A stretch of 64,000 nucleotides of DNA from Escherichia coli (GTDB taxonomy: Bacteria > Pseudomonadota > Gammaproteobacteria > Enterobacterales > Enterobacteriaceae). Of this stretch, positions 47,211 to 52,986 are shown piece after piece. The notes beneath the pieces were generated by a model that ran no database searches, was not told where the DNA came from, and saw only the letters and a program-made list of their open reading frames with translations. Position numbers and translations under genes: made by a program. Each line of letters begins with the position of its first letter. Position 1 is the stretch's first letter. Where the stretch lies: assembly GCF_965641715.1 (NCBI RefSeq), contig NZ_OZ282455.1. The stretch is one strand, 5' to 3'.

Positions 47211-48025
47211 CGGGAGCCTCCTTCAGTGCCTATAAGCGGACGCCAGTGAGATTTCTGAAGATTGAATTCCGCATGATTTTTAAGGCGACGAACACGATCT
47301 CCAGTGACCAGTTTTTTCCCGTCACCTGTAACGGTTTGCATTTGATCAGAAACATCCGGACGGGTGATCATGCCCTGACGCCAGAGAAGTGAGTACAGCA
47401 TCATGCCCCGGTAATCACGGGTGAGGGTTTTCTGGTTGGCTTCAAGCGTCAGGTCGGCGTTTTGTCTTCCTTCCTGCCATCCCTGCCGTAATGCGGTTTC
47501 CCACACTTTTCGTTGCACGCTGTCTTCTGGAACGACGCTGCCTTCTGTACCCGGAGTGGCTGTTGTTGAAAGCCCCCGGAGAAGCCAGTCACGCCAGCCC
47601 GGTGGATTGCTGACAAAGCGTTCAGGGCGAATGATGGTCCAGACCCGGGAAGAGGTCCGGATTTGATCTGGCGTGATATGAGCTACGTCCTGTGCTTCAT
47701 CAATAACCGGTGGTAGCCAGCCTTCCGGGCTAATCAGTGGCCGGAAATCGTATAAGGCATTAAGTGTGCTTTCCCGGGCGTTGAGCGCCTGAATCAGCTC
47801 CCATGAACGCTGAGCCTTGCCACCACGAAATCCAAGCGTTTTACCTGCGTCGGTCAGCATTTTCCAGCGTGTTTCTGACAGACTATCCGGCTTTTCACTT
47901 CGTGGTTTAAGCCATGCATTAATGTCAGGTGGTGGCGTATTGACACCACCTGGCGAGATGGTAGGGGAAGAAGAACAACCAGTAAGCAGTATTACTGGCA
48001 AAAGGAGAGAGGTGAGTGCTTTCAT
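47207..48025 (-). CDS. traI: conjugal transfer lipoprotein TraI
   Basis: 272 aa; lipobox LLTGC; synteny. Confidence 0.7.
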   Translation of the reverse strand: MKALTSLLLPVILLTGCSSSPTISPGGVNTPPPDINAWLKPRSEKPDSLSETRWKMLTDAGKTLGFRGGKAQRSWELIQALNARESTLNALYDFRPLISPEGWLPPVIDEAQDVAHITPDQIRTSSRVWTIIRPERFVSNPPGWRDWLLRGLSTTATPGTEGSVVPEDSVQRKVWETALRQGWQEGRQNADLTLEANQKTLTRDYRGMMLYSLLWRQGMITRPDVSDQMQTVTGDGKKLVTGDRVRRLKNHAEFNLQKSHWRPLIGTEGGSR

Positions 48026-48480
48026 TTTTTCCGGTTCTCCGGCTGCATGAAGCTGACCTGTAACAAGCCCGGATATTGATGGATTGTTGCTCTCCAGGCT
48101 GTCTGGGCTTCAATAAGTCTCAACGTATTGGAAAACGTCATATCCCGGACGTGAAGGTTGACTGGTAACGGCAGGCGGACACCATTGTAGTTAAACTGCA
48201 TCCCCCTGACTCTGGCCAGTTCGTTCAGTAATTCAATTGCATCACCTTCCCAGTCAAAGGAAAGGCGATCGCTGTTAGCTGTCAGAAGATGAGACCCCGT
48301 TGAAACCGGAAGTTGGCCGGAAAATACACCTTTGTCCCATAATGTGTACTGAGTGTGCCGGGTAACCGCCACATCAGAGGCAGCACCGTAGTTACGCGGA
48401 ACAGGAGTATGCTGAGAAGGGGAGTTGCAGCCAGCCAGAAAAAGGGCGGCAAGACACCCCGCAGGTATAATACGGTTCAT
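48022..48480 (-). CDS. traH: conjugal transfer lipoprotein TraH
   Basis: 152 aa; lipobox LAGC; synteny. Confidence 0.7.
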   Translation of the reverse strand: MNRIIPAGCLAALFLAGCNSPSQHTPVPRNYGAASDVAVTRHTQYTLWDKGVFSGQLPVSTGSHLLTANSDRLSFDWEGDAIELLNELARVRGMQFNYNGVRLPLPVNLHVRDMTFSNTLRLIEAQTAWRATIHQYPGLLQVSFMQPENRKK

Positions 48481-48874
48481 AATAATTCCTGAGCAGTTAA
48501 ATCAGAATGGGATATACCGGTGCTCCGGTACAGACAGGATGATGTTTGTTTCCGGCTATACTTGCGTTACCGGAAATAAATGCCAGTGTGGCCAGGTAAA
48601 TAGCCTCATAGTTTACTGAAGGTGATTATTCCTGATACTGGCTGGTTGATGTGTCGTCAGACATAAAACGAATATGAGCGTAATCTTTAACGCTCCGCGC
48701 CGAATCGATCCATGATGGATGACTCGACGATTTATGAATCGAACGTACCGGCGCTTGTCCCTGAAACAGTTCCCGGCCCTCGTCCGGATAACCTGCAATT
48801 CAGACAGGCACATGTGCCCGTACACTCTTGTATCTTACTGAGTATATCAGAATTTATGTAAATTCAAATATCCT

Positions 48875-49459
48875 CTATGCCTCTTTGTTGTATTTTCCGT
48901 CAAGTATGAGCCGGGTACCATCGTAATGCATGATCAGGGCATCAAGGTACGCCGGTTTGAATTTCTTGCCGAGCCTATCTCTGGCCAGAAATGATAAACA
49001 ATGATTATGTGTCATTATTACTATGTTCCTTTTATGAGATTCTCTTGCGATTGATTCAAGCGTCTTATAAAGATCATTATTGCAGTCTGATAAACTGTCC
49101 ATAACGACGGGTTCTTTACCGGAGAAGAATTTTGCAGTTTGTATGGTTCTTACCGCATTGCTGGAGTAAATATCATATTCACTGAAGATTGTTGCGAACT
49201 TAATACCTTCCTGCTGTGCTTTCTCTGTACCGGTAATAGTGATTCCGCTTTTATCCGAATAGCATGGCATATCTGAACGGTCGCAACGTTCTCCATGGCG
49301 GAAAAGGAAAATAACGGTGTTATCAGCATTAATTTCTTTTGCCTGTTCCAGGGTGATATCGGGAAGCGAGCTTTTTGCTTTTGTCACTGCCGCTACCAGG
49401 AAAACAGAAAATAAAAGAATGAATGCTGTTTTTGAATAAGAAGAACGTGGTTTCATCAT
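48875..49459 (-). CDS. secreted histidine phosphatase, Ais/PmrG-like (occupies the traG position)
   Basis: 194 aa; signal peptide; RHG-type catalytic motif LFRHGERCDRS and later HNHC histidine; resembles Ais from memory; AT-rich. Confidence 0.7.
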   Translation of the reverse strand: MMKPRSSYSKTAFILLFSVFLVAAVTKAKSSLPDITLEQAKEINADNTVIFLFRHGERCDRSDMPCYSDKSGITITGTEKAQQEGIKFATIFSEYDIYSSNAVRTIQTAKFFSGKEPVVMDSLSDCNNDLYKTLESIARESHKRNIVIMTHNHCLSFLARDRLGKKFKPAYLDALIMHYDGTRLILDGKYNKEA

Positions 49460-49518
49460 GTTATTTAAACTGAATATAAAAATACCCCCGGGTTTAGTGC
49501 CGGGGGCGGGGACAGTAA

Positions 49519-50721
49519 TCAGAAAGTGAACTGAAGTTGTGCCATTGCACCGTAATCGTGGTCAGTTCCTACCAGGCCGGAAACATCGATATGTACGACG
49601 TCAAATGGAGAGATACCAACGCCAGCGGTGAAGGCGCTTCCGGAGTTTGATGCCATGTTCTGACGATAACCGGCACGCAATTGCGCCCATTTCCATGCGT
49701 TAAATTCAGCACCAACACTTGCAAACTGACGTTTGCTGTCAGAAGTGAAGCCACTGGCAGGAGTCAGATCAATGTCAAGAGCAGTGGTAAACAGGTCATT
49801 ATGCCAGGATACACCGGCGGTTGCCTGCGGACGAACTTTGAAGGTTTCTTTAAAGCCATTGACGACTTTAGTATCAATACTGCGTGGAATGATGTTCTGG
49901 GCAACAAGACCGACAGTCCAGTTGTCATTCAGGTCTGTATAAGCACCAATATCGGCGTTGAATCCGTTTTTCGTGTTGTGGTACTTGTCACCGTCAAAAT
50001 CGTCTTTGTCGTAATCACGAACCGTTACGTTGTAGTTAAACAGGTCCACACGCTGATATTTTGGTGTGACGCCAAGAGACCATTTTTGTCCGGCCGTTTC
50101 CAGTTCTTTGGCAAATGAAATTCCGACGTCGGTAATTACAGCTGCACGCCCGAATGCGCGTGAGGTCAGGGCATTCTTATCGACGTCGGTAATTGTTCCA
50201 TTGGCAACTTTGTCCAGATAATCCAGGTCTGCATCGTTTACTTTTCCGTTTACGCTGACAGTTCCGTAAGACTTGACCATAAGGGCAAACGGCAGAGTGT
50301 CATTTGCCATGGCTGCTACAGCTGATACACCTACCTGAGCATCTGCATTGATATTGCGGAATTCCTGCAGACGATGTTTAAGATTTGCCGCTGCCTGTTG
50401 TACGCCATGCTGGTTATCTACAGCACTGTCAAACAAATCCCAGTCATCTTTAACATCATCAGCTTTATTTGATACATCATCAGGATCAGCAACTTGTGCC
50501 CCAACAGACGGCAGAAGAAGGCTGAAATCATCATTGCTGTTGTGCTTTGTCAGTAAAGCCGGGTTTGCCAGAGGTGCCACACCATAATGGGAAGATGCTA
50601 CCCCGGTACCACCCATTGCATCGTTACGCGCTTCAAAATATGACGTCGCTGCTGCAGCGTTAAAGGAAAATAATACAGCAGATGCAATGATGGTGCGGGT
50701 AATATGATTTTTCTTCATCAT
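49519..50721 (-). CDS. traF: conjugal transfer outer-membrane protein TraF
   Basis: 400 aa; signal peptide; C-terminal aromatic residue (…QFTF) typical of beta-barrel OMPs; synteny. Confidence 0.7.
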   Translation of the reverse strand: MMKKNHITRTIIASAVLFSFNAAAATSYFEARNDAMGGTGVASSHYGVAPLANPALLTKHNSNDDFSLLLPSVGAQVADPDDVSNKADDVKDDWDLFDSAVDNQHGVQQAAANLKHRLQEFRNINADAQVGVSAVAAMANDTLPFALMVKSYGTVSVNGKVNDADLDYLDKVANGTITDVDKNALTSRAFGRAAVITDVGISFAKELETAGQKWSLGVTPKYQRVDLFNYNVTVRDYDKDDFDGDKYHNTKNGFNADIGAYTDLNDNWTVGLVAQNIIPRSIDTKVVNGFKETFKVRPQATAGVSWHNDLFTTALDIDLTPASGFTSDSKRQFASVGAEFNAWKWAQLRAGYRQNMASNSGSAFTAGVGISPFDVVHIDVSGLVGTDHDYGAMAQLQFTF

Positions 50722-50805
50722 TTAATTTCCTGTTTATCAGAATTTAGACAAAACAACGCTATGACACGGATGTGCCGTAATTTTTACTTTGGTACTATCT
50801 GGTAT

Positions 50806-51630
50806 TTACCAGGGTAATAAAGACGTATTAAATAAGCTAACAGGTAGTATTTGCCCTGTAATAAGGTTCCCGGCAAGGCCAGGTCTCAACGTGACGCGTC
50901 GCAAAGACATTGTTGTATTCTGCCTGGTTGTATATTCAGTTAACCATTTTCTTTTTTCATCGTTCAGAAGTGTTGGTGATAATGATAGTGCCGGATATAT
51001 TACAGAGCCATTTATTTCTTTTTTCTGTCTCAATATTACCCCGCAATATTCTCTTTTCGTGTTTCCGGCGAAGGGGAAACTATGCCAGAAAATAACTTCA
51101 GTGTTGCTGCTATCACTAATAAGCATTCTGAAATTATCAGCAGTATCTGGCCATTCACCGGACAACGCTATCGGATAGTTTTCATGGCCATTCAGCCAGT
51201 CCGGATTGAGATTAAAACATTCAGCAAGATGTTCGAGAGCGTCAGCTGAAAGATAGTCTGCAAGTCTGGCCGGGTCCTGTATAACCGTGGAGCGGATATT
51301 CCATGGCGACAGCAATGTTGCCAGTAATGGCGCATTTATATCATGCGACAGCATGATGTATTCAATTCTGCTTATTATGTTTCCTGTGGTGTTATCCGCA
51401 GGCATAAACATATTATGAAGAGCATCCTCAAGCAGGATTCGGGTTAAATCAGCGGTGGATATGGCTAATTGTTCGCTCATTATCCCCAGAACTTCTCTTA
51501 CCCCTTGGGGGTAACGGACCTGCAGAGGTGTCGGGTTTATCTGACGACCGTTGATGAGTTTTTCGCCGATTGCTTTTTTGTCCAGCGAGAGCATCATTCG
51601 GGCCGCAATACCGGTCGTATTCAGTCTCAT
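50806..51630 (-). CDS. traE: conjugal transfer protein TraE
   Basis: 274 aa; synteny (between rci and traF). Confidence 0.65.
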   Translation of the reverse strand: MRLNTTGIAARMMLSLDKKAIGEKLINGRQINPTPLQVRYPQGVREVLGIMSEQLAISTADLTRILLEDALHNMFMPADNTTGNIISRIEYIMLSHDINAPLLATLLSPWNIRSTVIQDPARLADYLSADALEHLAECFNLNPDWLNGHENYPIALSGEWPDTADNFRMLISDSSNTEVIFWHSFPFAGNTKREYCGVILRQKKEINGSVIYPALSLSPTLLNDEKRKWLTEYTTRQNTTMSLRRVTLRPGLAGNLITGQILPVSLFNTSLLPW

Positions 51631-51780
51631 TGTTCCTCCGACTGAAAAAGTCTTTTCAGCTCATGTGGTTATTGTATCTTCGGTGTTTTTTCTGGTGAAA
51701 CGAATAATTTCGATCATGCAGATCGAATGTGTTTGGCGAGTTGTTGCAACTCGCCTTTCTGTATGTGTTTTGAATGATGT

Positions 51781-52935
51781 TTACAGCGGGGTGCTGCCCG
51801 GGTTCAGAGGGCAAATCATAATGTAGTCAGGGTCGTTAACAGGTAACGCTCCGGGAGATGGGACACGTTCGCCTTTCTGTGCTGCAATGGCCAGTGTACG
51901 CAACAAAACCTCACTGGCGCGGTGAACTGCTTCCTCTTTCGTTGTGGCAGTGACGTGAAGGTTATCAAAATCACCGATCTCAATACGATGCGCTTTCTGC
52001 CCATTTTCTTCATCGATGGTCGTGATATGGGCAGGATACGGCACAAACCATGCTGCCACTTTTTGTGTCTGCCGCCGGCGGGCATCAAGCTTACTGACCA
52101 GTTGCCATGCACGAAGATGAGTATACCGTTTCAGCATATTCATGGAACGATGTCCTGATATTGCAGCAATCTCCATTACATTCAGGCTACCCAGTTCGAA
52201 GAAGCGGCTTATTGCTTCATGCCGTAGATCGTGAAAATGCAGGTCCTCGATGCGAAGTCGTTGTGTGGCTATTCTCCAGGCATTTTTAAAGCCGGATGCG
52301 GTGTAATCAAAAACATTGCCGTGGAGATTAACGGGCATCATCTGAAGAAAGTTACGGGCACGTCTGGACAGAGGAACATCCCGTGAGTGACCGTTTTTGG
52401 TTTCAGGTAAATGAGCCACACCGTGGCGCAAATCAATGTGCTCCCAACGTAAGGCCAGTATTTCGCCCTGCCGCATGGCTGTCTCAAGGGCAAGATGGAA
52501 AATGACATACAACATCAGATTTTTTTCGCGGAAATAGCGAGAAAGGCGACGTTCTTCTGAAGACGTTAGCCGGCGATCTCGTCCCGAGGATACTTTCGGC
52601 TTGCGAACCAGTTCAACCGGGTTAGTACGACAGGTTCCCCATTCAACACGAGCAATATTGAACAGAGATGACAGAAGGGCGAGTTCAAGACGTACAGTAT
52701 TACCTGTAATGGGTTTACCCGTTCGGGGGTTGATTTCTGCTAAACGAACGTCTCTGTATGTAGCAATATCAACGGTTGTTATTTCGTCCATATTCCGAAG
52801 GGCAATGGGATATCGCTTGATAACATTGCTCCGGTAAAACTCCTGTTGATGCCCTTTCTTGTGAACAGAAACTGTTTTCAGGTACTTATCCAGTGCGCGT
52901 GACAGGGACATTTTACGGATGCGTGGAGACGGCAT
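51781..52935 (-). CDS. rci: shufflon-specific tyrosine recombinase Rci
   Basis: Track ORF 51781..52971; ATG at 52935 gives 384 aa; C-terminal HxxR…Y integrase signature; adjacent shufflon. Confidence 0.9.
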
Positions 52936-52986
52936 GCTAACCTCAAAAGAGGCAAAAAATAATGCCAACAATCATTCTCTGCAAGC

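What the first reader, a model, noticed from the sequence alone, without database searches (positions are those of the whole stretch)
48875..49459. traG position encodes a secreted Ais/PmrG-like histidine phosphatase
The gene between traH and traF has a signal peptide and the RHG histidine-phosphatase signature (LFRHGERCDRS … THNHC), and resembles the LPS core heptose(II)-phosphate phosphatase Ais as I recall it. It is markedly more AT-rich than its neighbours. IncI thin-pilus PilV adhesins recognise recipient LPS, so an LPS-core-modifying enzyme inside the transfer operon could tune donor surface properties, e.g. avoiding donor-donor mating, or alter recipient recognition.
Basis: partly seen in the sequence, partly recalled or inferred. 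Interest (0 to 1): 0.6.

Follow-up and report, generated by a model that had tools for sequence, protein, structure and literature searches.

The report
IncI1 TraG: Ais-like periplasmic phosphatase
The gene between traF and traH of this IncI1 (R64-type) plasmid does encode an exported relative of the LPS-core phosphatase Ais/PmrG. Public databases already name it so, published genetics show it is not needed for plasmid transfer, and it sits in a variable accessory slot, so its biological role is still untested.

Summary
Window 48875-49459 (- strand) is a 194-aa ORF with a positively charged, hydrophobic N-terminus, the RHGERCDRS and THNHC motifs, and 40% GC, which is the 2nd percentile of the window.

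It is a real Ais-family member:
- 43% identical to E. coli K-12 Ais (E 2e-51).
- 295 bits against NCBIfam PRK15416 (cut-off 142).
- It keeps every invariant family residue.
- The AlphaFold model is confident (pLDDT 93.7) and has a branch-1 histidine-phosphatase fold.

None of this is new. RefSeq and UniProt already call it "LPS core heptose(II)-phosphate phosphatase" or TraG. R64 genetics and a pESBL Tn-seq screen show traEFG are dispensable for transfer.

What this analysis adds:
- The traF-traH gap is a variable slot downstream of a terminator-like hairpin.
- About 500 I-complex plasmids have no phosphatase gene in the slot.
- A few IncK2/Z plasmids carry a different Ais-family clade there (39% identity).
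- One IncI1 variant has a swapped allele (72% aa) between about 99% identical flanks, with dN/dS 0.15.

The most likely function is a plasmid-supplied, PmrA-independent LPS inner-core phosphatase that acts as an accessory trait. A role in mating or surface exclusion is neither tested nor supported.

The parts
48875..49459 (-). traG coding sequence, 194 aa: an Ais/PmrG-family branch-1 histidine phosphatase.
   Evidence: ORF. NCBIfam PRK15416 scores 295 bits against a cut-off of 142. 43% identity to K-12 Ais. AlphaFold model pLDDT 93.7. RefSeq names it 'histidine phosphatase family protein' or 'LPS core heptose(II)-phosphate phosphatase'.
49376..49459 (-). Codons 1-28: N-terminal export signal, either a Sec signal peptide or a signal anchor.
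   Evidence: The n-region carries +3/-0 charge, the hydrophobic core spans residues 11-25, candidate SPase I sites lie at residues 23-30, and there is no lipobox. AlphaFold models residues 10-28 as a separate helix. Cleavage was not tested.
49274..49300 (-). RHGERCDRS (residues 54-62): catalytic Arg54 and nucleophile His55, plus Cys59 and Asp60.
   Evidence: R54, H55 and C59 are invariant in 52 family members. E57, R58, D60 and S62 are at least 90% conserved.
49133..49153 (-). VRTIQTA (residues 103-109): the second catalytic Arg (R104).
   Evidence: R104 is invariant. It aligns with the 'RTIQTA' arginine of fructose-2,6-bisphosphatase in a profile-against-PDB alignment.
48998..49012 (-). THNHC (residues 150-154): the second catalytic His (H151) and conserved Cys154.
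   Evidence: T150, H151 and C154 are invariant. The motif aligns with the 'CHQ' histidine segment of fructose-2,6-bisphosphatase.
49484..49507 (-). G+C-rich terminator-like hairpin just after the traF stop codon, 24 nt upstream of the traG ATG.
   Evidence: 8 base pairs, 7 of them G-C, followed by ATTTTTAT. MFE -19.2 kcal/mol, z -2.5. A hairpin at the same place but with a different sequence occurs in all six I-complex lineages compared.
48481..48874 (-). 394-bp traG-traH intergenic region: the ancestral part of the slot, presumably holding the regulatory region of traH and downstream genes.
   Evidence: A Salmonella salamae plasmid that lacks traG has a region about 67% identical over about 450 nt, and the homology resumes at the traG stop codon. 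Substitutions show no codon periodicity, so it is probably non-coding.
49519..50721 (-). traF: the upstream neighbour, a FadL/PorV-like outer-membrane beta-barrel.
   Evidence: NCBIfam PorV/PorQ family E 5.6e-15, below its cut-off. Pfam TraF_2 on its homologue. Present in 1936 plasmid records.
48022..48480 (-). traH: the downstream neighbour, a DotD-like lipoprotein and the first core T4BSS gene.
   Evidence: NCBIfam DotD E 8.5e-6. RefSeq name 'IncI1-type conjugal transfer lipoprotein TraH'.

Best explanation
TraG of this R64-type IncI1 plasmid is an exported phosphatase of the Ais/PmrG family (histidine phosphatase superfamily, branch 1).

Proposed mechanism:
- Its N-terminal signal takes the catalytic domain to the periplasmic side of the inner membrane.
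- There His55 acts as the phospho-accepting nucleophile, assisted by Arg54, Arg104 and His151.
- Four family-conserved cysteines probably form periplasmic disulfides.
- By analogy with Salmonella PmrG, the most likely substrate is the phosphate on heptose II of the LPS inner core.

The plasmid would thus give its host a dephosphorylation of the LPS core that does not depend on the chromosomal PmrAB regulon, lowering the negative charge of the inner core.

TraG is an accessory, cargo-like gene and not a mechanical part of the type IVB transfer machine. It lies in a variable slot between two transcription units (traE-traF and traH onward). Different I-complex plasmids carry different contents in that slot, or none.

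Shown here: family membership, intact catalytic residues, an export-type N-terminus, purifying selection and slot variability. Inferred: the substrate, the disulfides and the physiological benefit.
For: Homology and family membership:
- 43% identity to K-12 Ais, E 2e-51.
- NCBIfam PRK15416 scores 295 bits against a cut-off of 142, the highest of the non-chromosomal clades scored.

Catalytic residues and fold:
- TraG keeps all 9 invariant and 13 near-invariant positions of a 52-member family alignment: R54, H55, R104, H151 and four Cys among them.
- The family profile aligns the RHG, RTxQTA and TH motifs to the catalytic residues of fructose-2,6-bisphosphatase.
- The AlphaFold model has pLDDT 93.7 and pTM 0.85. 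Its best PDB matches are all branch-1 histidine phosphatases. Its best AFDB matches are Ais or 'LPS core heptose(II)-phosphate phosphatase' entries.

Export: an export-type N-terminus is present in TraG and in the six other family members examined.

Reference activity: PmrG dephosphorylates heptose II (PMC8129183, citing Nishino 2006).

Selection:
- dN/dS is 0.155 between R64 traG and a diverged IncI1 allele.
- dN/dS is about 0.2 against the IncK2/Z gene.
- The gene covers at least 80% of the query in 1392 of 1441 plasmid records.

Accessory status:
- Not needed for transfer.
- Absent from the slot in about 500 I-complex plasmids.
- A clean one-gene insertion/deletion relative to a plasmid lacking it.
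- Low GC.
- Relatives occur as cargo on IncF plasmids and islands, next to fimbrial, Mig-14 and SPATE genes.
Against: - No enzymatic or LPS data exist for TraG. The substrate is inferred from a homologue only 43% identical, and even E. coli Ais is annotated 'putative'.
- TraG scores below the cut-off of the NCBIfam PmrG equivalog model (123.7 against 170). K-12 Ais also fails it (145.8), so this criterion does not discriminate.
- The Pfam His_Phos_1 match is weak (E 3.5e-4).
- No promoter-like site or Shine-Dalgarno sequence was seen upstream of traG, and a terminator-like hairpin precedes it. Its expression is therefore unproven.
- A gene kept in essentially all (about 1370) IncI1 records, inside the tra cluster, may have a conjugation-linked role that laboratory matings did not reveal.
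Confidence: 0.6

Rival explanations
1. TraG remodels the LPS core of plasmid-bearing cells to serve conjugation itself. It could make them poor targets for the PilV thin pilus (a surface-exclusion or anti-self-aggregation function). Or it could lower surface charge so that mating pairs form more readily, especially in liquid.
For: - The gene lies inside the tra cluster, about 3 kb from the shufflon and pilV, and is kept in essentially all IncI1 records.
- PilV adhesins bind recipient LPS core.
- An Ais-family gene of a different clade sits in the same traF-traH slot in some IncK2/Z plasmids. This could mean repeated recruitment.
- A precedent exists. Cells that acquire PAPI-1, which uses an R64-like type IVb pilus, alter their LPS and become poor recipients (PMC5297154).
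- Published dispensability tests measured donor ability only.
Against: - traEFG are dispensable for R64 transfer, and pESBL Tn-seq gave TraG 0.00 for 'required for transfer'.
- About 500 I-complex plasmids with thin pilus and shufflon lack any such gene.
- Reported R64 PilV ligands are outer-core disaccharides.
- In IncI2 TP114, the Hep(II) phosphate added by WaaY is not needed for PilVA' recognition (PMC10654706).
- A 1998 paper, known here only from its title in a reference list, reports PilV-specific aggregation of cells carrying R64 or ColIb-P9. That suggests self-recognition is not abolished.
- IncI1 already has ExcA/TraY entry exclusion.
Confidence: 0.17
2. TraG is an active periplasmic phosphatase with a substrate other than Hep(II)-phosphate. 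Candidates are another LPS phosphate (Hep(I)-P, or lipid A 1- or 4'-phosphate or diphosphate), a phosphorylated envelope glycan, or a phosphorylated periplasmic or pilus protein.
For: - TraG is only 39-49% identical to every other Ais clade, and the family tree is star-like with deep, unresolved clades. Such divergence often accompanies shifts in specificity.
- It fails the PmrG equivalog cut-off.
- Branch-1 histidine phosphatases act on very varied substrates, as the structural neighbours show: RosC, phosphoserine phosphatase, SixA and PGAM5.
Against: - All residues invariant across the family, including those around the active site, are kept.
- The PRK15416 score is high.
- K-12 Ais fails the same equivalog cut-off.
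Confidence: 0.15
3. TraG is a silent or decaying passenger with no current function. The AT-rich foreign gene would be poorly expressed behind a terminator and simply hitch-hikes with a very young, nearly clonal IncI1 backbone.
For: - A terminator-like hairpin lies directly upstream, with no recognisable promoter or Shine-Dalgarno sequence.
- The gene is dispensable.
- Most IncI1 copies are at least 99% identical, so intactness alone says little.
- Scattered truncated or frameshifted variants and IS-disrupted copies exist.
Against: - dN/dS is 0.155 over dS of about 1.06 between two IncI1 alleles, and all catalytic residues are kept in alleles at 87%, 73% and 60% identity.
- The gene is full length in about 97% of records.
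Confidence: 0.06
4. TraG acts as a regulator. This follows the UniProt name of its relative AfrS ('transcriptional activator' of AF/R1 fimbriae).
For: AFDB lists Q07682 AfrS, 38% identical with TM-score 0.88. An AfrS-like gene ends a PefC/AfrB-type fimbrial operon on an IncF plasmid.
Against: TraG has an export signal, a complete phosphatase active site, and no DNA-binding domain. Any effect on expression would be indirect, through the envelope.
Confidence: 0.02

Closest known systems
Ais / PmrG (E. coli b2252; Salmonella PmrG), the LPS core heptose(II)-phosphate phosphatase
   Same: - Same family (NCBIfam PRK15416).
- 43% identity over the whole mature domain.
- Same length.
- Same export-type N-terminus.
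- Same RHxERCDRS, RTIQ(T/S)A and THNHC motifs and the same four cysteines.
- Low GC relative to surroundings (ais 0.433 in a 0.498 region).

   Different: - TraG is plasmid-borne inside a conjugation gene cluster. Ais/PmrG is chromosomal, divergently placed next to arnB, and under PmrA control.
- TraG forms a separate deep clade.
- Its activity has not been tested.
Ais-family gene in the traF-traH slot of some IncK2/Z plasmids (e.g. NZ_CP134667.1, NZ_CP055049.1)
   Same: Same slot, same orientation, same family (PRK15416 172 bits). RefSeq annotates it as LPS core heptose(II)-phosphate phosphatase.
   Different: - Only 39% aa identity to R64 TraG. The neighbouring proteins are 56-87% identical.
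- GC 0.52 against 0.40.
- Different flanking intergenic DNA.
- Found at 99% identity or above in only 3 plasmid records.
- Not resolved as sister to the R64 clade.

AfrS-like Ais-family genes attached to plasmid fimbrial operons and virulence islands
   Same: Same family and predicted fold (AFDB Q07682, TM-score 0.88). These are also accessory genes beside a surface-appendage operon on a conjugative plasmid.
   Different: - A different clade, 36-40% identical.
- Associated with chaperone-usher fimbriae, EAL-domain genes, SPATE or Mig-14 genes, not with a T4SS.
- Named a transcriptional activator in UniProt.
PAPI-1 LPS-based surface exclusion (Pseudomonas aeruginosa, R64-like type IVb pilus)
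   Same: A conjugative element whose PilV-type pilus binds recipient LPS, and whose carriers have altered LPS and receive poorly (PMC5297154).
   Different: PAPI-1 has no identifiable LPS-modifying gene, and the change is in the amount of CPA O-polysaccharide, not in core phosphate. No such phenotype is known for IncI1.

Membership tests
Histidine phosphatase superfamily, branch 1 | RHG motif carrying the nucleophilic His and its Arg | tested here: met
   R54-H55-G56 is present. R54 and H55 are invariant in 52 relatives.
Histidine phosphatase superfamily, branch 1 | Second catalytic Arg and second catalytic His | tested here: met
   R104 and H151 are invariant. They align to the RTIQTA and CHQ segments of fructose-2,6-bisphosphatase.
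Histidine phosphatase superfamily, branch 1 | Alpha/beta fold of the superfamily | tested here: met
   The AlphaFold model has pLDDT 93.7. All top Foldseek PDB hits are branch-1 enzymes, with probability 1.00 and TM-score about 0.5-0.6.
Histidine phosphatase superfamily, branch 1 | Significant Pfam His_Phos_1 (PF00300) match | tested here: inconclusive
   There are two partial matches, with i-E 3.5e-4 and 0.042. The family is divergent from the Pfam seed.
Ais/PmrG family (NCBIfam PRK15416, LPS core heptose(II)-phosphate phosphatase) | Score above the curated cut-off of the subfamily model | tested here: met
   295.1 bits against a cut-off of 142, full length. For calibration, K-12 Ais scores 391.9.
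Ais/PmrG family (NCBIfam PRK15416, LPS core heptose(II)-phosphate phosphatase) | N-terminal export signal placing the enzyme in the periplasm | tested here: met
   The N-terminus has a charged n-region plus a 15-residue hydrophobic core, in TraG and in six relatives. Whether it is cleaved or acts as an anchor was not resolved, and localisation has not been shown experimentally.
Ais/PmrG family (NCBIfam PRK15416, LPS core heptose(II)-phosphate phosphatase) | Family-specific conserved residues (RCDRS...C loop, GIT, RTxQTA, C126, THxxC, Y171) | tested here: met
   All 16 invariant and 12 near-invariant columns of the enteric alignment are present in TraG. The same holds for the 52-sequence alignment.
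PmrG equivalog (NCBIfam NF052369) | Score above the equivalog cut-off (170 bits) | tested here: not met
   TraG scores 123.7 bits. K-12 Ais also fails at 145.8, as do all nine other family members scored. The criterion therefore does not separate true orthologues in enterics.
PmrG (functional definition) | Removes the phosphate from heptose II of the LPS core | not testable with these tools
   This needs enzyme assays or LPS mass spectrometry. The activity is known for Salmonella PmrG only (PMC8129183, citing Nishino 2006).
PmrG (functional definition) | PmrA-regulated gene next to the arn/pmrHFIJKLM operon | tested here: not met
   The gene lies between traF and traH on a plasmid. K-12 ais lies next to arnB.
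Core component of the IncI/Dot-Icm type IVB secretion machine | Required for DNA transfer | tested here: not met
   From the literature: traEFG are not required in R64, and pESBL TraG has probability 0.00 of being required for transfer.
Core component of the IncI/Dot-Icm type IVB secretion machine | Conserved across MPF_I systems | tested here: not met
   It is absent from IncM pCTX-M3. It is also absent from the slot in IncK2/Z, Enterobacter and S. salamae plasmids that keep traE, traF and traH. Plasmid records: 1936 with TraF against about 1373 with an R64-type TraG.
Surface-exclusion factor | Presence in the recipient lowers mating-pair formation or transfer | not tested
   No published or computable test was found. 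This needs exclusion-index assays.

The most novel reading that the evidence does not exclude
Ais-family phosphatases may be repeatedly captured by operons that build surface appendages. Two different clades sit in the same traF-traH slot of I-complex transfer regions, and AfrS-like copies sit at the end of plasmid fimbrial operons. The reason would be that dephosphorylating the LPS inner core makes the outer membrane permissive for pilus or adhesin function, or masks the cell from its own pilus. On this reading, IncI1 TraG would be an LPS-based surface-exclusion or mating-tuning factor, expressed with the tra genes and overlooked because only donor ability on standard recipients was ever measured.
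Probability: 0.15. Interest if true: 0.6.

Novelty: already known. Interest (0 to 1): 0.3.

Why it matters
IncI1 plasmids are among the main carriers of ESBL and AmpC resistance genes in E. coli and Salmonella from poultry, livestock and people. In the plasmid collection searched, about 1370 records carry this gene.

If TraG really removes the Hep(II) phosphate, every IncI1 host receives an LPS-core modification that is independent of PmrAB. That could change metal and cationic-peptide tolerance, phage susceptibility, or cell-cell contact. It would be an unrecognised plasmid-conferred envelope trait.

At present the finding restates an existing database annotation, and the gene is known to be dispensable for transfer. 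Its value is as a cheap, well-defined hypothesis to test, not as a discovery.

Tried and rejected
- **PDB sequence search with the single protein:** no hit at E of 1 or below. No Ais-family structure has been solved. Only the family profile reached other branch-1 enzymes.
- **Rfam scan of 47500-52500:** nothing found.
- **Sigma-70 promoter scan:** no site upstream of traG. The only - strand hit near it lies inside the gene, and there were fewer hits than in shuffled sequence.
- **Possible small gene in the 394-bp traG-traH spacer:** a 70-aa GTG ORF at 48613-48825 (-) stays open in three lineages, but substitutions show no codon-position bias. It was rejected as coding.
- **Remnant of a phosphatase gene in 'empty' slots (L010, L011, L012):** tblastn found none.
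- **Deep phylogeny, to decide between one ancient occupant and two captures:** the neighbour-joining tree is star-like, with 14-56% bootstrap support on the deep nodes, so the question is unresolved. A first tree script timed out.
- **dS between R64 and the IncK2/Z genes:** saturated (dS above 1.6 for every gene, above 3 for traG, and incalculable for rci). Only the R64/L006 ratio is reliable.
- **Papers not held in the library:** Komano 2000, Ishiwa & Komano 2003, Yoshida 1998 and Foley 2021. Their content is cited second-hand.
- **AfrS:** no paper could be found.
- **IncI1 plus histidine phosphatase:** no paper links the two.
Full report
**1. What is at the coordinates**

Window 48875-49459 on the - strand is a 194-aa ORF with an ATG start. 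The gene order on that strand is:
- rci (51781-52971)
- traE (50806-51630)
- traF (49519-50721)
- this gene
- traH (48022-48480)
- traI, traJ, traK, nuc

The 1.1 kb around the gene is 100% identical to plasmid R64 (NC_005014.1) and to several other IncI1 plasmids. RefSeq annotates the CDS there as 'histidine phosphatase family protein' between TraF and TraH. The wider 24 kb matches many IncI1 plasmids at about 99%. So the window is an R64-type IncI1 transfer region and the ORF is the gene historically called traG.

**2. Checking each element of the observation**

- **Motifs.** LFRHGERCDRS (residues 51-62) and THNHC (residues 150-154) are present.
- **N-terminus.** MMKPRSSYSKTAFILLFSVFLVAAVTKAKSS has three positive charges and no negative ones. 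It has a 15-residue hydrophobic core, several possible signal-peptidase I sites between residues 23 and 30, and no lipobox. AlphaFold models residues 10-28 as a helix detached from the domain. Export is therefore well supported. Whether the segment is cleaved ('secreted') or acts as an inner-membrane anchor could not be decided. Two relatives (the IncK2/Z gene and P0020) have no obvious cleavage site.
- **Base composition.** GC is 0.403 and GC3 is 0.395, the 2nd percentile of 585-bp windows (window mean 0.51, sd 0.054). traH, traI and traJ are 0.51-0.53. Low GC is a family habit: K-12 ais is 0.433 in a 0.498 region, and a variant IncI1 allele is 0.364.

**3. Is it really Ais-like?**

Yes, on several independent lines:
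- BLASTP against E. coli K-12 Ais (b2252, taken from the annotated genome) gives 43% identity over 164 residues, E 2e-51.
- The separate 'PmrG' equivalog model (NF052369) scores 123.7, below its cut-off of 170. K-12 Ais also fails it (145.8), as do all nine other family members scored. That failure is therefore uninformative.
- An exhaustive HMMER scan of 1.84 billion representative proteins found a small family: 131 representatives at E of 1e-3 or below, and 13 at 1e-30 or below.
- In a 52-sequence alignment, R54, H55, C59, C66, G72, R104, T150, H151 and C154 are invariant. E57, R58, D60, S62, Q107, C126 and Y171 are nearly invariant. TraG has all of them.
- The family profile hits only branch-1 histidine phosphatases in the PDB. 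It aligns RTxQTA and TH(S/N)xC to the catalytic Arg and His segments of fructose-2,6-bisphosphatase. No family member has a solved structure.
- The AlphaFold model is confident (pLDDT 93.7, pTM 0.85).
- Its PDB neighbours are RosC, phosphoserine phosphatase, SixA, PGAM5 and PhoE, at TM-scores of about 0.5-0.6.

The four conserved cysteines are absent from cytoplasmic branch-1 enzymes. This fits oxidative folding in the periplasm, but that is an inference: model coordinates could not be inspected.

**4. What was already known**

The annotation is not new.
- That paper classifies it as non-essential 0.79, essential for maintenance 0.21, required for transfer 0.00. TraE and TraF are also not required (PMC4288162).
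- A study of IncM pCTX-M3 states, citing Komano et al. [quoted passage not shown]
- The activity of the reference enzyme is known from Salmonella: 'PmrG dephosphorylates Heptose II' (PMC8129183, citing Nishino 2006).
- I found no paper that tests IncI1 TraG biochemically or asks whether it affects LPS, exclusion or aggregation.

**5. New context from this analysis: the traF-traH gap is a variable slot**

*How often the gene is present*
- TraF is found in 1936 plasmid records: 1370 at 95% identity or above, 31 at 80-90%, 505 at 60-80%, and 30 below 60%.
- An R64-type TraG (at least 80% identity) is found in 1373 records. All Ais-like hits together number 1441.
- So IncI1 essentially always has the gene, and the roughly 500 other I-complex plasmids do not.

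*Examples of slot contents*

| Plasmid lineage | Slot contents |
|---|---|
| Typical IncK2/Z plasmid | 358-bp gap with a 56-aa hypothetical ORF |
| Enterobacter plasmid | Unrelated 138-aa hydrophobic protein |
| S. salamae plasmid | 520 bp with no phosphatase remnant |
| Three IncK2/Z records | Ais-family gene of another clade |

*The IncK2/Z Ais-family gene*
- It is 39% identical to R64 TraG at the protein level, with GC 0.52.
- In the same pair of plasmids, TraF is 86.5% identical, TraH 67%, TraI 63%, TraE 58% and TraJ 56%.
- A bootstrap neighbour-joining tree shows at least six deep enteric clades, each 37-50% identical to the others: chromosomal Ais, R64 TraG, the IncK2/Z slot gene, and the AfrS-like, P0033 and P0039/P0047 groups.
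- The deep branching of that tree is unresolved.
- I therefore cannot tell whether the two slot genes descend from one ancient occupant or were captured separately.

*The clean insertion/deletion*
- The S. salamae plasmid has a counterpart of the whole 394-bp R64 traG-traH spacer, about 67% identical.
- The homology resumes at the traG stop codon, and a short shared motif (TATATTCAGT) lies upstream.
- R64 thus differs by a clean one-gene insertion or deletion.

*The allele swap within IncI1*
- One IncI1 variant (L006) has traE, traF, traI and traJ about 99% identical in DNA to R64, and traH 95%.
- Its traG is only 76% identical in DNA and 72% in protein, with dN 0.163, dS 1.06 and dN/dS 0.155.
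- This is an allele swap by recombination, with clear purifying selection on the protein.
- A 60%-identical member of the TraG clade sits in a non-tra island.

**6. Transcription context**

- A G+C-rich hairpin follows the traF stop codon directly (49507-49484, - strand; 8 pairs, then ATTTTTAT).
- A hairpin at the same position but with a different sequence is present in all six lineages compared.
- traE-traF therefore looks like a unit that ends before the slot.
- traG starts 24 nt after the hairpin, with no Shine-Dalgarno sequence and no consensus promoter.
- Its expression is unproven and may depend on read-through.

**7. Relatives elsewhere**

Ais-family genes are common accessory cargo:
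- At the end of a PefC/AfrB-type fimbrial operon next to an EAL gene on an IncF plasmid.
- Next to an EAL-domain gene and a SPATE autotransporter.
- Next to mig-14.
- On other IncF plasmids.
- UniProt's AfrS ('transcriptional activator' of AF/R1 fimbriae) is a family member by fold and sequence.

The recurrent placement beside surface-appendage or envelope-defence genes is suggestive, but it is not evidence of mechanism.

**8. Most likely function**

I commit to this reading, with about 0.6 confidence overall. TraG is a periplasm-facing histidine phosphatase that removes the Hep(II) phosphate of the LPS inner core, as PmrG does. It gives plasmid carriers a charge reduction that does not depend on PmrAB. 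It is an accessory trait lodged in a recombination-prone slot, not a part of the T4BSS.

My confidence differs by step:
- Family membership and catalytic competence: about 0.9.
- The specific substrate: about 0.55.

A precedent for LPS-based exclusion exists in PAPI-1.

Against that role:
- The known R64 PilV ligands are outer-core disaccharides.
- The Hep(II) phosphate is irrelevant for TP114 PilVA'.
- Hundreds of thin-pilus plasmids do without the gene.

The other rivals are a different periplasmic substrate (0.15), a silent passenger (0.06, contradicted by dN/dS) and a regulator like the name of AfrS (0.02).

**9. Verdict**

- The identification is already in public annotation, and the gene's dispensability for transfer is published.
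- The mating-related interpretation is speculative.
- The additions here are slot variability, a second Ais clade in the same slot, an allele swap under purifying selection, and the upstream hairpin. These are modest.
- They sharpen the experiments to run (LPS mass spectrometry and exclusion assays) but do not change the classification.

Noticed in passing
window 49484-49507 (- strand); same position in L005, L006, L010, L011, L012: A G+C-rich hairpin sits directly after the traF stop codon in six I-complex lineages. The stem sequences differ, so the structure is conserved and the sequence is not. Only some copies have a T-run. It looks like a terminator or an RNA 3'-end stabiliser that separates traE-traF from the downstream genes.
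   Followed up: partly
window 48481-48874: The 394-bp traG-traH spacer is conserved (about 67% over about 450 nt) in a Salmonella salamae plasmid that lacks traG, with near-identical blocks such as CATGGATCGATTCGGCGCGGAGCGT. Two overlapping reading frames stay open in three lineages, including a 70-aa GTG ORF at 48613-48825 on the - strand. Substitutions show no codon periodicity, so it is probably regulatory DNA or RNA for traH and downstream genes. Its function is unknown.
   Followed up: partly
window 49519-50721 (traF): TraF resembles FadL/PorV/PorQ-type outer-membrane beta-barrels (NCBIfam PorV_fam E 5.6e-15, below its cut-off; Pfam TraF_2 and a weak PorP_SprF on homologues). It is dispensable for transfer yet is the best conserved gene of the traE-J stretch (86.5% aa between R64 and an IncK2/Z plasmid, dN/dS 0.04).
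   Followed up: no
L006 5001-5579 compared with window 48875-49459: An IncI1 variant has traE, traF, traI and traJ about 99% identical in DNA to R64 (traH 95%) but a traG allele only 76% identical in DNA (72% in protein). The recombination breakpoints lie near the 3' end of traF and in the traG-traH spacer or traH.
   Followed up: yes
L003 470-8558; L014 4464-6582; L013 1580-3102: Ais-family paralogues recur beside EAL-domain genes and surface or virulence loci: a PefC/AfrB-type fimbrial operon, a SPATE autotransporter, and mig-14. UniProt names one relative (AfrS, Q07682) a transcriptional activator, which looks like a misnomer for an exported phosphatase.
   Followed up: partly
PMC4288162 Table 2 (pESBL TraG row): The Tn-seq classification gave TraG a probability of 0.21 for 'essential for maintenance'. 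That is higher than Nuc, TraF and Rci (0.00) and TraE (0.07). This may only reflect insertion density in a short AT-rich gene, and it was not examined.
   Followed up: no
L011 5318-5734 (Enterobacter hormaechei plasmid pEclE2-1): In this I-complex-like plasmid the traF-traH slot holds an unrelated 138-aa hypothetical protein with hydrophobic segments. This is another example of variable cargo at this position.
   Followed up: no
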